NCBI RefSeq assembly: GCF_006345805.1
Contig: NC_042999.1
Span: 52,080,001-52,144,000 of the forward strand
Direction of reading: 5' to 3'
Length of the DNA stretch: 64,000 nt
Source: Octopus sinensis
Lineage: Eukaryota
Positions within the stretch are counted from its first letter, which is position 1. Each line of letters opens with the position of its first letter. The notes beneath the pieces were generated by a model. The model ran no database searches and was not told the origin of the DNA. It was given only the letters and a program-made list of their open reading frames with translations. Position numbers and translations under genes: made by a program. Shown in pieces: positions 32,090-51,288 of this stretch.

Positions 32090-33138
32090 AAGTAATAGAG
32101 AACTGATATGAGCATGTAACAAGTAAAGTTATGCAGGAGGATGGACAGGATGTAGGAGTTTGGATGCGAACACATTAGAGCAGAAGAAAACAGCAGAGCA
32201 TGGTATGTAAAAAATGCCACAGAACCGCTATTACTACAAGTAAGAAGGTCAGACCTTTTTAGGATGAAAGATTGCAAAGATAAAGCACTATACAAGCAAT
32301 TGAAACCGAATGAAACTGAAAATAGGTGGGTATAGAAAAGAATGCATTATCAATTTCGTAGAGATGTTGACGATAAGACAGACAGAGAAAAAAGAAGGCT
32401 GTGGATGACTAAAAGTGATTTAAAACCGGAAAGGGAGGCTCTAATCTATGCTGCCTAAGAGCAAGCACTAAGAACATACTACATAAAATACAGAATTGAC
32501 AACACAGCAGAAAATGATAAGTGCAGAATCTGTGGACAAACGCTGAAATCGTATGGCATATTACCAGCCAATGTACGTCACTAGCCCAGAAGAAATATAA
32601 GAGACGCCACGACAATATAGCCAGACGTGTCCATTGGACACTCTGCAACAAGTATGGACTTAACAGAGCAAACATTGGTACGACCACAAACCTGAAGGTA
32701 TTGTCGAAAATAGAAATGCAAATGTCCTATGGTATTTTGTGATTCAGTGCGACCATGAGATTGAGAATAGGAAGATTGAGAAAGAAAACAAACTATGCTG
32801 GATCATAGACATAGCACACCCAACTGACAATAAGGTATGTGATAAGGAAGAAAGAAAAGTTGATGGATATGACAGGTTAGCTTGGGAGGTTAAGCAGTTA
32901 TGGATGACGAAAAAATTTGTTCTAGCATTAACAATTGTCGGAGTGAGCAAAAATCACGAGAAGTACAGGGAACAACTAGGGGTTGCAATAAGGTTGGAGC
33001 ACTTGCAGAAAACAGCACTGCTTGGAACCGCTGAATACTCCGGATGGCGCTCGAAAAATAAGGGGCGTCAATTTAATTCCCTGGTAGTGAATAGCTGACA
33101 TCCTAATACATCTCCAGCGTTAGAAGCTGTACAAAGGC
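32090..33138 (+). mobile_element. Second old R4/Dong-like 3' fragment (knuckle plus RLE)
   Basis: CRICGQ, KRRHDNIARRVHW, WIIDIAHP and LQKTALLGTA; followed by (GAT/TAA)n. Confidence 0.85.
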
Positions 33139-33347
<209 letters not shown>

Positions 33348-33699
33348 ATTAAAACAATACCTGTTGTCATAGGTGCCCTGAGAATGATAGCAAAAGGGGC
33401 TGATTGCTCCCTAACTCAGATACCAGGAAATCCCAGAATGGCAGAAATTCAAAAGATAGTGCTCATGGAAACTGCTCATATCCTACGCAAAATACTTTCT
33501 TTGTAATCTCAAGTTTTTAAACAAACATAATTTTCATATGGGTTTTTTTAGGCATTCACTAGAACAACACTAAGTACAAAACCAAATATATGACACCCTA
33601 GGCATAACACCAACATGAACTTCTAACTTGTTGTCTCTTGAGGTCTCTGGGTGAGACTTGGAGCCAGCTTGTGCAAATGTAAAGCAAACGTCAAACATA

Positions 33700-33700
<1 letters not shown>
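33348..33700 (+). mobile_element. 3' end of a third R4/Dong-like family
   Basis: KTIPVVIGALRMI...IQKIVLMETAHILRKILSL* plus a distinct 3' UTR, then (AAT)n. Confidence 0.85.
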
Positions 33701-33771
<71 letters not shown>

Positions 33772-33783
33772 CAACAATAACAA

Positions 33784-33899
33784 AACACTTTCAATACAGT
33801 TACCATCAGAGCATCACAACAGAACACAGCACATACCCAAGGCACACAGAGCTCCGCTCGGTAGTGAGGTGAAGGCACGCTTTAAAAATAGAACTACTG
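33784..33899 (+). mobile_element. 3' tip of the young Dong-like family
   Basis: Matches the 3' UTR at 35480-35594; flanked by (AAT)n. Confidence 0.9.
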
Positions 33900-33928
33900 A
33901 ATAATAATAATCATAATAATAATAATAA

Positions 33929-35591
33929 TATATATGGATGACCTAAAACTATACGCTGCAAATGACAAACAGCTGGAAACACTATTAAAGACAGTTCATG
34001 GATTTACCAAAGAAATAGATATGAAATTTGGATTAGAAAAATGCGCCAAAGTAACCATGAAAAGAGGAAAACTAGTTAAGAGTAACAACATCACACTAGA
34101 TAAAACCAATGAAATAAAAGAATTAGACCAAAGCCAAACTTACAAATACTTAGGAATCCATGAACTAGATAAGACACAACACACACAAATGAAAGAGAAA
34201 ATAAAAAAAGAATATTATAGACGAGTTAGATCAATACTAAAAACAGAGCTCAATGCTAAAAACAAGATAATAGGTATCAACACTTTAGCTGTTCCAGTTA
34301 TAAGTTACAGCTACAATATCCTTAACTGGACACGAAATGAACTGTCCAAAATAGATCGGAAAACAAGAAAAATACTGACAGGATCTAGGATGCATCACCC
34401 AAAATCTGACATAGAAAGACTATATATACAACGTATAGAAGGTGGTAGAGGCCTTATACAGCTGGAAAACTACTATAAAATAACCACCATAGGATTGCAA
34501 GAATACCTACTTCAGAAGGAAGGAAAACTGATCCAGATAGCAGCAAAACACGAACAAAACAAAAAACTGTTCTCAGTATTTAAGGAAGCTGACAAATACA
34601 AACAAGAAATCATACCACCTAATAAACACAAAGAAGAAGAAGAAGAAGATGATGAAGAAACAACAAAAGTTATAAAACAAATGAAATCCAAACTAAAAAT
34701 AGAACAGCAACGAGCCATGATAAAACGATGGCAAGAAAAGCCCCCTTCATGGTAAATACTGGACTAAACTAAACGCAAAAGAAATAGACAAAGAAAAATC
34801 CCAGCAATGGTTGAGAAGCTCAGGACTCAAAGCAGAAACAGAGGGATTTTTAACTGCAGCACAAGACCAAAGCCTCCCCACCAGAAATTACCAAAAACAT
34901 GTAATGAAAAGAAATATTACAAGTAACTGCAGAATATGTGGAGATGGACAAGAAACAATAAATCATATTATCTCTAGCTGCCCAGTCCTGGCTAAGAAGG
35001 AATATATTCACAGACATGACAGAGTTGGAACCTACATACATTGGAAGCTATGCCAACATTATGGAATAACAACAGAAAAAAGATGGTATAGGCACACACC
35101 AGAAAAGGTCACAGAAAACGAGAAAGCAACCATACTCTGGGATATGCCGATACACACAGATAGAGAAATTAAGGCCAACAGACCAGATATAGTTGTCAGA
35201 GATCATGAAGAAAAAAAATGCTTTCTAATTGATGTATCAATACCGGCAGATGACAACGTGTCTCTAAAAGAAATGGAGAAACTCTCAAAATACAAAGACC
35301 TGGAAATAGAGGTAACTAGAATGTGGAACCTGAAAACAGAAACAATTCCTATCATAGTAGGTGCATTAGGCATGATAAAAAAATATTCAGACAAATACAT
35401 AACAAAAACACCAGGACTTACAAACACATATAACATACAGAAAATTGCACTACTAGGCACCGCACACATCCTACGCAGAACACTTTCCATACAATAACCA
35501 TCAGAGCATCACAACAAATCACAGCACATACCCAAGGCACACAGAGCTGCGCTCGGTAGTGAAGTGAAAGCACGATATAAAAATAAAACTA

Positions 35592-35594
<3 letters not shown>
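33929..35594 (+). mobile_element. Young R4/Dong-like retrotransposon, copy 1 (5'-truncated at YMDD)
   Basis: YMDDLKL, CRICGDGQETINHIISSC, RHD, RPDIVV..LIDVSIP..KLSKY (RLE); one frameshift near 34741; (AAT)n on both sides. Confidence 0.95.
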
Positions 35595-35660
<66 letters not shown>

Positions 35661-35661
35661 C

Positions 35662-35714
<53 letters not shown>

Positions 35715-35715
<1 letters not shown>

Positions 35716-36269
35716 GCCCTGATGCAGTACCAGGCAGTGGCTCTCATGGCTTCTGATCTTAACTGATTGGAAGTGTTATCATATACATTGTTTTGTCTTG
35801 GTATAAAAGATGGGCTACAGCAAATATTCTGCTCAATACCACAGATTTGCTTGTCAGTTGTTTGACCTTAACCAGTTGAGCATGTCCCTTAGTGGCTGAC
35901 GATATGTGCATCTCTGATCACGAGCAGAAGTAGTGGGGGAGCATCATAGCCATGTGTTGAGAGGGATTCTTTGGGGTTTGAATAATTCACCTCTGGAAAC
36001 ATGGGTGGTTCTTTCAACATCCTTAAACAACCCTTATTCAGGGACCTTTAGAGCGGGATGGGCTACTCAACCTGAAGAATATTCTAACTGGGCCCCACCT
36101 GCAAGGTCATGTGCTGTTTATCCTGATATGAGATCACTATGTCGCGCACATATGGTTGTGATGCATGTGCCTGGTGTACCCTTATCAGACGGGTAGTCAT
36201 GATGGGTATATTGGGCTTCGTATATTTTACCCCAGTGTCACTTTGATGGCATGCACTGCTCTCTCACTC
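35715..36269 (+). mobile_element. 555-bp non-coding element embedded in (TAA)n, copy 1
   Basis: Colinear copy with the same termini at 50744-51288. Confidence 0.8.
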
Positions 36270-36313
<44 letters not shown>

Positions 36314-36335
36314 TAGTAATAATAATAATAATAAT

Positions 36336-38231
36336 ATCCCCCACACATGGATCCTCGAAACACTAGCCATTAACAAAGTAGCACCAACAATCATAAAATT
36401 CATAGAGCACTCTATGAATAAATGGCAAACAGTCCTACACCTCCAAACAAAAGAGGGACTCATGAAAACCAAAGACATCCCCATTAGAAGAGGAATATTC
36501 CAGGGAGACACGCTCTCTCCACTCCTTTTCTGCTTGGCACTGTCACCTCTATCTGATATGCTAAATAGAACTGGATGCGGATATAAATGTTACGGCAAAA
36601 CGATCAGCCACCTTTTATATATGGATGACCTAAAACTATACGCTGCAAATGACAAACAGCTGGAAACACTATTAAAGACAGTTCATGGATTTACCAAAGA
36701 AATAGACATGAAATTTGGATTAGAAAAATGCGCCAAAGTAACCATGAAAAGAGGAAAACTAGTTAAGAGTAACAACATCACACTAGATAAAACCAATGAA
36801 ATAAAAGAATTAGATCAAAGCCAAATTTACAAATACTTAGGAATCCATGAACTAGATAAGACACAACACACACAAATGAAAGAGAAAATAAAAAAAGAAT
36901 ATTATAGACGAGTTAGATCAATACTAAAAACAGAGATCAATGCTAAAAACAAGATAATAGGTATCAACACTTTAGCTGTCCCAGTTATAAGTTACAGCTA
37001 CAATATCCTTGGCTGGACACGAAATGAACTGTCCAAAATAGATAGGAAAACAAGAAAAATACTGACAGGATCTAGGATGCATCACCCAAAATCTGACATA
37101 GAAAGACTATATATACAACGTATAGAAGGTGGTAGAGGCCTTGTAGAGCTGGAAAACTACTATAAAATAACCACCATAGGACTGCAAAAATACCTACTTC
37201 TGAAGGAAGGAAAACTGATCCAGATAGCAGCAAAACACGAGCAAAACAAAAAACTGTTCTCAGTATTTAAGGAAGCTGACAAATACAAACAAGAAATCAT
37301 ACCACCTAATAAACACGAAGAAGAAGAAGAAGATGATGAAGAAACAACAAAAGTTATAAAACAAATGAAATCCAAACTAAAAATAGAACAGCAACGAACC
37401 ATGATAAAACGATGGCAAGAAAAGCCCCTTCATGGTAAATACTGCACTAAACTAAACGCAAAAGAAATAGACAAAGAAACTCAGGACTCAAAGCAGAAAC
37501 AGAGGGATTTTTAATTGCAGCACAAGACCAAAGCCTCCCCACCAGAAATTACCAAAAACATGTAATGAAAAGAAATATTACAAGTAACTGCAGAATATGT
37601 GGAGATGGACAAGCGGCCCAGTCCTGGCTAAGAAGGAATATATTCACAGACATGACAGAGTTGGAACCTACATACATTGGAAGCTATGCCAACATTATGG
37701 AATAACAACAGAAAAAAGATGGTATAGGCACACACCAGAAAAGGTCACAGAAAACGAGAAAGCAACCATACTCTGGGATATGCCGATACACACAGATAGA
37801 GAAATTAAGGCCAACAGACCAGATATAGTTGTCAGAGATCATGAAGAAAAAAAATGCTTTCTAATTGATGTATCAATACCGGCAGATGACAACGTGTCTC
37901 TAAAAGAAATGGAGAAACTCTCAAAATACAAAGACCTGGAAATAGAGGTAACTAGAATGTGGAATCTGAAGACAGAAACAATTCCTATCATAGTAGGTGC
38001 ATTAGGCATGATAAAAAAATATTCAGACAAATACATAACAAAAACACCAGGACTTACAAACACATATAACATACAGAAAATTGCACTACTAGACACTGCA
38101 CACATCCTACGCAGAACACTTTCCATACAATAACCATCAGAGCATCACAACAAATCACAGCACATACCCAAGGCACACAGAACTGCGCTCGGTAGTGAAG
38201 TGAAAGCACGCTATAAAAAATAAAACTACTG
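36336..38231 (+). mobile_element. Young R4/Dong-like retrotransposon, copy 2 (5'-truncated)
   Basis: IPHTWI, RRGIFQGDTLSPLLF, YMDD and RLE; two small deletions near 37479 and 37613; (AAT)n on both sides. Confidence 0.95.
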
Positions 38232-38406
<175 letters not shown>

Positions 38407-38499
38407 GTTTCAAATTTGGGAACATGATAAATCGGTTACATCGAACCGCATACTTATTTTATCGACGCCGAAAAGATGAAAATCAAAGTAGGTCACGGT

Positions 38500-38820
38500 G
38501 GAGAAAAAGATTGAGAATTACAAACCACTAAAAGATGAGGTTGTGCGAAAGTGAGCAATGAAGAAAGTAAGTTTCATCGCAGTTGTTGTAGGGAGAATAG
38601 GAGCATTAAGAACCAGGTTTGAGAAATGTGTTGGAGAAACTGGGATTGACATGGGAGCAGAAAACTGTTCAGAAAACTGCTTTATCGGTGACAACACGGA
38701 AGTTGAAGTTGGTACTTGGAAGAATCATAATATAAGACGCAGTGAAACGCTTGACAGCAGATTGTTGTCTGTTCTTACGAAATTAACTGCAGTAATTCAA
38801 GTCGAGTTCTCTGACAAATA
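38500..38820 (+). mobile_element. Diverged R4/Dong-like 3' fragment
   Basis: KKVSFIAVVVG.IGAL and CAGAAAACTGCTTTATCGG parallel 32900-33030; followed by TAA-like repeats. Confidence 0.55.
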
Positions 38821-38990
38821 AAATGATAATAATGATAAAAATAATAGTAATTATTATAATTATAATAATAATACAAAATGCATATTTTTGCCGATCGACA
38901 TCGAAAGTGTCCCACCCAAGTGTTGTACTAAATTGCTCTGTCTTTTGTTGCAGAGAAGTAGAAACTCATAATCTTCCCTTGCCATCACCC

Positions 38991-50743: not shown

Positions 50744-51288
50744 TGCCCTGATGCAGTACCAGACAGTGGCTCTCATGGCTTCTGATCTTAACTGATTGGA
50801 AGTGTTATCATGTACATTGTTTTGTCTTGGTATAAAAGATGGGCTACAACAAATATTCTGCTCAATACCACAGATTTGCTTGTCAGTTGTTTGACCATAA
50901 CCAGTTGAGCATGTCCCTTAGTGGCTGACGATATGTGCATCTCTGACCACGAGCAGAAGTAGTGGGGGAGCATCATAGCCGTGTGTTGAAAGAAATTCTT
51001 GGAGGTTTGGATAATTCACCTTTGGAAACATGGGTTGTTCGTTCAACATCCTTAAACAATCTTTATTCAGGGACCTTTTGAGCGGGATGGGTTACTCGAC
51101 CAAACGAAAATTCTAACTGGGCCCCGCATGTGCTGTTTATCTTGATTTGAGATCACCATGTCGCGCACATATGGTTGTGATGCATGTGCCTGGTGTACCC
51201 TTATCAGACGGGTAGTTATGATGGGTATACTGGGCTTCGTATATTTCACCCCAGTGTCACTTTGATGGCATTAACTGCTCTCTAACTC
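50744..51288 (+). mobile_element. 555-bp-family non-coding element, copy 2
   Basis: Same TGCCCTGATGCAGTACC start and ACTC end as 35715-36269; (CAA)n upstream, (AAT)n downstream. Confidence 0.8.

What the first reader, a model, noticed from the sequence alone, without database searches (positions are those of the whole stretch)
35715..36269. 555-bp structured non-coding passenger of the TAA-targeting system
Seen: two colinear copies 15 kb apart share exact 5' (TGCCCTGATG) and 3' (ACTC|AAT) ends within AAT/CAA repeats. I see no convincing ORF, no B box and no similarity to the neighbouring Dong 3' UTRs. Possible pairings include terminal GCAGTG/CACTGC, TACCC/GGGTA, and AC(T/C)ATGT/ACATATGGT, where the T/C difference between copies preserves pairing with G. 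Inference: a SINE-like RNA of unknown origin that borrows the Dong RT/RLE. Its fixed 5' end, unlike the truncated LINEs, implies an internal promoter or a processing step. This is the least explained element in the window.
Basis: partly seen in the sequence, partly recalled or inferred. Interest (0 to 1): 0.75.

Follow-up and report, generated by a model that had tools for sequence, protein, structure and literature searches.

The report
Non-coding hitchhiker bearing Dong's 3' hairpin
This 556-base non-coding repeat, with an estimated tens of thousands of copies in what is probably an octopus genome, sits almost always in AAT repeats and likely borrows the copying enzyme of Dong retrotransposons, possibly by carrying a look-alike of the RNA hairpin that many Dong lineages share near their ends.

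Summary
Real and abundant. The element is 556 nt (it starts one base earlier, at A 35714). Nine copies lay in 600 kb of evenly spaced samples (about 40,000 per genome). It is a non-autonomous non-LTR retroposon: 120 of 128 intact 3' ends join AAT in Dong's phase and orientation, bystander copies are mostly 5'-truncated (23 against 5), and some repeat their first 13-19 nt, as full-length Dong does. There is no ORF, tRNA/5S/7SL head, A/B box or recognisable ribozyme, and no alignable match to sampled Dong 5' or 3' UTRs. New here: ten Dong lineages share a covarying 3'-UTR stem-loop, and a model built without the element finds its best match at nt 461-505 (0-4 of 1500 tail shuffles; weak over the whole element). 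Covariation inside the element was not found. No parent LINE was found and the promoter is unknown. The scan noted this element before on other DNA (e1-10333100). Verdict: new variant of a known kind (EhSINE1-like or SIDE-like passenger).

The parts
35714..36269 (+). Full-length copy of the 556-nt non-coding retroposon (young subfamily, 99% to consensus)
50744..51288 (+). Second copy, older lineage, 10-nt internal deletion, 92% identical to the first
36169..36216 (+). 20-bp 3' hairpin (element nt 456-503) with pentaloop GGGUA (36191-36195); its core 36174-36218 is the best match of the Dong 3'-UTR model
35714..35732 (+). First 19 nt, found as head-to-tail 5' duplications in other copies; marks the RNA 5' end
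35802..35809 (+). TATA-like word TATAAAAG (nt 89-96); several truncated copies begin here, which microhomology to AAT may explain; function untested
35816..35985 (+). Segment (nt 103-272) also carried inside a separate MITE family
35595..35713 (+). (AAT)n target tract, left flank
36270..36336 (+). (AAT)n target tract, right flank; junction CACTC|AAT
33929..35594 (+). 5'-truncated Dong-like LINE, family A (RT end, CCHC, RLE, 3' UTR); 3'-UTR stem-loop at 35526-35569
36338..38234 (+). Second 5'-truncated Dong-like LINE, family A; stem-loop at 38162-38205
33351..33700 (+). 3' end of Dong-like family B; stem-loop at 33631-33674
32670..33138 (+). 3' end of Dong-like family C, whose stem-loop (33065-33108) looks most like the element's by eye

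Best explanation
It is a non-coding, non-tRNA retroposon family that sits in (AAT)n repeats in Dong's orientation and phase and is likely copied in trans by the reverse transcriptase and restriction-like endonuclease of Dong-type LINEs, which probably recognise a Dong-type stem-loop 73 nt from its 3' end. Shown: abundance, target, polarity, precise 3' junction, 5' truncation, 5' duplication, several linked subfamilies, absence of an ORF and of a Pol III head, and a 3' hairpin that fits a model of Dong 3' UTRs. Inferred: (1) the + strand is transcribed with a discrete 5' end at nt 1, more likely by Pol II from an internal promoter than by Pol III (three T4 runs, no A/B box); (2) Dong protein binds the 3' hairpin, nicks the (ATT)n strand and primes reverse transcription at CACUC-AAU; (3) early stops give 5'-truncated copies, and reiterated copying at the template's 5' end gives the 13-19-nt duplications; (4) each insertion leaves AAT on both sides, so copies pile up beside Dong elements.
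For: Target and phase: 120 of 128 intact 3' ends are followed by AAT; next six bases AATAAT in 60 of 72 copies against 33 of 36 for Dong A. A simple-repeat flank on both sides in 101 of 140 matches away from locus edges, on neither side in 7. Polarity: 23 copies 5'-truncated with intact 3' end against 5 of the reverse among 59 bystander matches. 5' duplication in 8 of 72 copies and in 2 of 5 full-length Dong A copies. Four direct, co-oriented Dong/element junctions without AAT between (L293, L161, L072, L049; 4 of 52 non-microsatellite flanks). Dong 3'-UTR stem-loop: 10 lineages, 15 cells changed on both sides, 0 of 500 shuffles as high. Model built without the element: best match in the element at nt 461-505, + strand, all 11 pairs kept, 7.9 bits, E 0.15. 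Own profile: 11-13 bits, 0-4 of 1500 tail shuffles as high, also with family C left out; leave-one-out Dong scores run from -2.6 to 29. The three frequent variants in the hairpin (460A, 468T, 498C) all keep pairing. Dong A is very abundant and young (19,519 candidates; 150 of 150 scored identical over 100 aa).
Against: No plain sequence match to any sampled Dong 5' or 3' UTR (3 of 54 tests at p<0.05, as chance gives; family C p 0.14). Over the whole element on both strands the hairpin score is weak (10-25 of 300 shuffles), neither window copy reached E 10 in the 64-kb scan, and I saw the resemblance by eye before building the models. No covariation in the element: covariation term +0.96, 3 of 129 pairs with a double change, and that consensus fold lacks the hairpin. 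A frequent T>A at 36211 in run X20 breaks an outer pair. Two copies lack the hairpin region yet have an intact 3' end (L004, L235). The four chimeric junctions could be deletions between neighbours. No promoter, ribozyme or transcript was shown.
Confidence: 0.68

Rival explanations
1. Dong still moves it, but recognition is relaxed: a read-through (AAU)n tail annealing to the nicked target is enough, and the hairpin match is chance.
For: No alignable sequence shared with Dong UTRs; hairpin support is weak over the whole element; copies without the hairpin region exist; several Dong lineages themselves score low on the model.
Against: The best model match falls on the sense strand within the distance range of Dong lineages (loop 37-83 nt from the end; element 73). 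Other sequences ending at AAT runs score near zero (17 tRNA-SINE ends, median -1.0). Frequent variants keep the pairs.
Confidence: 0.17
2. It is a SIDE-type internal-deletion derivative (5' UTR joined to 3' UTR) of a Dong lineage that is rare, extinct or unsampled. The mechanism is the same as in the best explanation; the origin differs.
For: Dong-type 3' stem-loop; Pol II-like anatomy; PMC13282606 supplement lists 51 Dong-R4 families in O. vulgaris, while I saw about 20 UTR clusters and clear 5' ends for four families.
Against: The element's 5' end resembles none of the four Dong 5' ends. No LINE-like branch among the best-supported loose ends in 7 runs (24 of about 1,500 and 24 of about 1,040 rows shown). 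No longer form among 151 matches.
Confidence: 0.1
3. The RNA is the - strand and an ATT-tailed LINE of another clade (for example the ATT-seeking Tx1-like family noted in e1-9939279) moves it.
For: The microsatellite flanks alone do not fix the strand; an earlier, unchecked note reports such a LINE in this genome.
Against: The precise junction is at CACTC|AAT and truncations remove the other end. Only the + strand folds better than shuffles. All four chimeras are co-oriented with Dong.
Confidence: 0.03
4. It is an ordinary Pol III SINE with a decayed or unrecognised head.
For: Size under 700 nt; a weak A-box-like word near nt 25 (two mismatches, by eye).
Against: No tRNA, 5S, 7SL or snRNA match; no A or B box in a consensus built largely from 97-99% identical young copies; three internal T4 runs.
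Confidence: 0.02

Closest known systems
EhSINE1 of Entamoeba histolytica (PMC2996970, PMC1635306; passages read)
   Same: 500-600 nt, no ORF, no identified precursor RNA, relies on a LINE with restriction-like endonuclease
   Different: EhSINE1 shares about 70 nt of alignable 3' sequence with EhLINE1 and has no targeted insertion; this element shares only a stem-loop-level likeness and is strictly AAT-targeted
R2 SIDEs and R2/R1 hybrid SIDEs of Drosophila (PMC3414825; abstract read)
   Same: Short non-coding passengers of a site-specific non-LTR element, with TPRT-type junctions
   Different: SIDEs are a 5' HDV-like ribozyme plus a recognisable LINE 3' end and are rare; here no ribozyme or parent was found and copies are estimated in tens of thousands
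Bipartite non-autonomous LINEs of RTE, Ingi, Vingi and R2 (PMC5786205; section 23 read)
   Same: ORF-less, probably Pol II, dependent on a LINE
   Different: That 2018 paper lists only those four clades as sources, not R4/Dong; no homology to a parent's 5' end was found here
Dong of Bombyx mori and Dong-R4 LINEs of octopus (PMC3774820, PMC1635306, PMC13282606, PMC9115989; passages or parts read)
   Same: Insertion into TAA repeats; here also the same strand, phase and 5' behaviour as the neighbouring Dong-like families
   Different: Dong is autonomous, and B. mori Dong has a self-cleaving HDV-like 5' ribozyme, which I did not detect in the element or in Dong A
tRNA-derived octopus SINEs (Ohshima and Okada 1994; seen only as a citation in PMC3531059)
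   Same: Abundant short retroposons in octopus
   Different: They have tRNA heads; this element has none

Membership tests
SINE (SINEBase definition, PMC3531059) | Short (<700 nt) and non-autonomous | tested here: met
   556 nt, no ORF
SINE (SINEBase definition, PMC3531059) | Head from tRNA, 7SL or 5S with internal Pol III promoter | tested here: not met
   No Rfam or ARAGORN hit, no A/B box, three T4 runs
SINE (SINEBase definition, PMC3531059) | Reverse transcription by a partner LINE | tested here: inconclusive
   Inferred from junctions, polarity and chimeras; no assay
SIDE / bipartite non-autonomous LINE | 5' part homologous to the 5' end of a LINE | tested here: not met
   No match to four clear and five tentative Dong 5' regions; library incomplete
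SIDE / bipartite non-autonomous LINE | 3' part derived from the LINE 3' UTR | tested here: inconclusive
   Structure model matches; plain alignment does not
SIDE / bipartite non-autonomous LINE | HDV-like ribozyme at the 5' end (R2 SIDEs) | tested here: inconclusive
   Own descriptor found none at the 5' end but had no positive control; Rfam none
SIDE / bipartite non-autonomous LINE | Insertion at the partner's target with the partner's junctions | tested here: met
   120 of 128 3' ends at |AAT, same strand and phase as Dong
EhSINE1-type passenger | About 70 nt of 3' sequence shared with the partner LINE | tested here: not met
   0 of 20 UTR clusters at p<0.03 against the 3' 130 nt
EhSINE1-type passenger | Abundantly transcribed | not testable with these tools
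   Only contigs of runs not on record as RNA were served
Dong/R4 (neighbouring LINEs) | Single ORF with RT, CCHC finger and restriction-like endonuclease | tested here: met
   Pfam RVT_1 and zf-RVT; best solved relatives are R2 proteins; PD..D motif visible in the C-terminal translation
Dong/R4 (neighbouring LINEs) | Insertion in TAA repeats | tested here: met
Dong/R4 (neighbouring LINEs) | Placement in the R4 clade on an RT tree | not tested
   No tree with named references was built; the name Dong rests on domains and target
Solo LTR, Helitron/HINE or MITE | TG..CA ends with short TSD, or TC..CTRR ends with 3' hairpin, or terminal inverted repeats | tested here: not met
   Start is A, 3' end is fixed and 5' end variably truncated, no TIR

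The most novel reading that the evidence does not exclude
A non-coding RNA unrelated by descent to any LINE or Pol III gene has acquired its own Pol II-type start and mimics a 3'-UTR stem-loop conserved across ten or more Dong lineages, letting it parasitise the whole Dong community and aim at AAT microsatellites: a natural, ORF-free cargo RNA for an R4/Dong-type site-specific integrase, of a kind I did not find described.
Probability: 0.3. Interest if true: 0.7.

Novelty: new variant of a known kind. Interest (0 to 1): 0.47.

Why it matters
Passengers show the minimum an RNA needs to be inserted by a site-specific LINE enzyme. A 44-nt stem-loop shared by many Dong lineages and by this passenger is a direct, testable candidate for the RNA element that Dong/R4 proteins recognise, which bears on using R2-like enzymes for RNA-templated insertion. 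A 2018 survey listed only RTE, Ingi, Vingi and R2 as sources of ORF-less LINE derivatives; a very abundant Dong-dependent family would extend that. The family also helps explain the stacked insertions in AAT repeats of this genome.

Tried and rejected
Rfam at E up to 10 on the element and up to 5 on eight loci with Dong 5' ends: only simple-repeat noise. HDV-like descriptor: nothing strict; relaxed hits also came in 14 of 15 shuffles; no positive control. Hammerhead: core words occur at nt 183 and 359, but by eye stem II does not form, and nt 183 lies in a long stem of the predicted fold. ADAR-type A>G excess: none in young copies (5 against 8), p 0.01 in older ones where copies are not independent; not used. 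Plain alignment to Dong UTRs: chance level. Search for an older or longer ancestral form with two diverged copies: returned ordinary copies. A DNA search with Dong sequence returned nothing because common words are skipped; the protein search worked. Expression: no RNA holder listed, which is no evidence either way. Paper searches showed no description of this element or of an R4/Dong-dependent passenger in an animal; only listings were seen for most hits. Repbase, Dfam, SINEBase sequences, the Zenodo repeat library of PMC13282606 and the 2015 octopus genome paper (not held) could not be checked, so the family may already sit there as an unclassified repeat.

Full report
Observation. The two copies are as described (35715-36269 and 50744-51288, 92% identical). 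A search of the own genome G000 (2.72 Gb) gave 2,504 first-look candidates, a lower bound; 40 were scored and gave 43 matches of 94-100%. In 60 evenly spaced 10-kb stretches there were 12 matches: 9 copies, one split match, one 56-nt fragment and one MITE. That is about 40,000 copies per genome (my arithmetic; Poisson range about 19,000-77,000; copies cluster). Twenty listed runs from five coded organisms hold 0.69-0.98 of its words, and contigs of all five organisms laid on it. That the genome is an octopus is my inference from its size and repeats; no call names it.

Boundaries and polarity. The element starts at A 35714 and is 556 nt. Among 151 non-redundant matches, 120 of 128 intact 3' ends are followed directly by AAT. 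The next six bases are AATAAT in 60 of 72 copies and in 33 of 36 Dong A ends. Among 59 matches not chosen by the full-length query, 23 are 5'-truncated with an intact 3' end and 5 are the reverse. The larger count, 55 against 8 of 120, is biased, because the queries favoured the 3' part. No copy extends upstream of nt 1 into shared sequence, so it is not a LINE's 3' UTR with variable truncation. Eight of 72 copies reaching nt 1-3 carry duplications of the first 13-19 nt, three of them with three or four head-to-tail 19-mers; two more are visible. Contig joints also return to nt 1 with 1-5 letters between. Two of five full-length Dong A copies duplicate their first 23 nt. Only the + strand folds better than shuffles (consensus z -3.3, 0 of 100). 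Together these make the + strand the RNA, with a discrete 5' end, inserted by target-primed reverse transcription (inferred).

The likely partner. The neighbours are single-ORF LINEs with RT, CCHC finger and restriction-like endonuclease, inserted in TAA repeats like Dong (PMC1635306, passages). I collected about 20 3'-UTR clusters, a few probably spurious, and clear 5' ends for four families. None aligns with the element above chance. Four of 52 non-microsatellite flanks are direct, co-oriented junctions with Dong coding or UTR sequence; template switching or deletion between neighbours would both give these. A tRNA-headed SINE in the same genome touches AAT on only 13 of 79 and 15 of 49 ends, so strict AAT targeting is not a property of every retroposon here.

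A shared 3' stem-loop. Ten Dong lineages align almost without gaps over a 44-nt stem-loop; I dropped two poorly aligned rows of the first 12. The structure covaries: 15 cells changed on both sides, 0 of 500 shuffles as high, and it beats all slid controls (the tool warns that shuffles ignore relatedness). A covariance model built without the element ranks four of the window's five family A-C Dong ends first and the fifth sixth, and misses a further diverged end near 38,800. Within the element its best match is nt 461-505 on the + strand with all 11 pairs kept: 7.9 bits, E 0.15. That is below the E 10 cut of the 64-kb scan, and in 19 loci only two element copies passed (L110, 9.6 bits). A profile of my own scored the element's last 120 nt at 11-13 bits, reached by 0-4 of 1,500 shuffles, but by 10-25 of 300 when the whole element and both strands were allowed. 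Leave-one-out Dong scores run from -2.6 to 29, and of 10 held-out clusters, some spurious, only 2 scored 10 or more. The hairpin is 20 bp with pair probabilities 0.76-1.0, and its three frequent variants keep pairing; none is a double change. I noticed the likeness by eye before building the models, so the support is moderate, not strong.

Structure elsewhere. The element has linked subfamily variants, but RNAalifold on 20 copies found no covariation and a different fold. Of 21 frequent variants at well-paired non-CpG sites, 13 keep pairing and 8 break it; most are transitions, so this says little. The overall fold is predicted, not shown.

The 5' end. There is no tRNA, 5S, 7SL or snRNA head, no A or B box, and three T4 runs. 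[quoted passage not shown] An internal Pol II promoter is my preferred reading, about even odds against processing or read-through.

Comparison. It works like EhSINE1 (PMC2996970, passages: 500-600 nt, no precursor RNA known, about 70 nt shared with EhLINE1) and like R2 SIDEs (PMC3414825, abstract), but fails a defining test of each, and it is not a SINE by the SINEBase definition (PMC3531059, passages). That EhLINE1 belongs to the R4 clade is recalled, not from a call. PMC5786205 (section 23 read) lists only RTE, Ingi, Vingi and R2 as sources of ORF-less bipartite LINEs. PMC13282606 (two of three parts, plus a supplement search) reports 5 recently active Dong-R4 families and 893 unclassified active SINE families in O. 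vulgaris without describing this one; its sequence library was not visible to me. PMC9115989 and PMC3747384 were seen as passages. Ten paper searches found no description (calls listed under Tried and rejected). The scan noted what appears to be the same element on another piece of this genome (e1-10333100) as sharing no detectable sequence with Dong. That agrees with my alignments and is not independent support; the stem-loop is the addition here.

Verdict. A real, very abundant, AAT-specific non-coding retroposon, likely a Dong passenger (about 0.9), probably through the shared stem-loop (about 0.6), of unknown origin. New variant of a known kind; interest 0.47.

Noticed in passing
L085:100-595; L141-L155; L107:7818-8039: A MITE family of about 500 nt with long imperfect terminal inverted repeats carries nt 103-272 of the element (96% between consensus sequences). 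L107 has the arms without the insert, so the MITE likely captured the piece.
   Followed up: partly
window 33065-33108, 33631-33674, 35526-35569, 38162-38205 and loci of alignment A3: A covarying 44-nt stem-loop is conserved in the 3' UTRs of ten Dong lineages whose C-terminal proteins are often only 25-60% identical; a candidate protein-binding element in its own right.
   Followed up: yes
L067, L070, L072, L078, L224, L227, L234 (5' ends): Full-length Dong families begin with purine-rich words; families A and B both have a GTAAGT splice-donor-like word roughly 110-120 nt from the start; no HDV-like fold was found in family A.
   Followed up: no
window 32670-38830: One AAT tract holds stacked, co-oriented ends of at least three Dong-like families, the element, and a further diverged C-terminal and UTR remnant ending near 38,820.
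   Followed up: partly
L083 and many random loci; window about 38406: A 207-nt tRNA-headed SINE is very common (125 matches in 600 kb) and touches the microsatellite in the opposite orientation in a minority of copies.
   Followed up: partly
L086, L111, L116, L129, L178: A tRNA-like piece followed by AAT shares the 10-mer CCAGGCAGTG with nt 17-26 of the element; probably chance. It may be the tRNA-headed Penelope leader of earlier notes, which I did not check.
   Followed up: no
L048:932-1414; L238: Inverted, head-to-head pieces of the element, resembling twin-priming or fold-back products.
   Followed up: no
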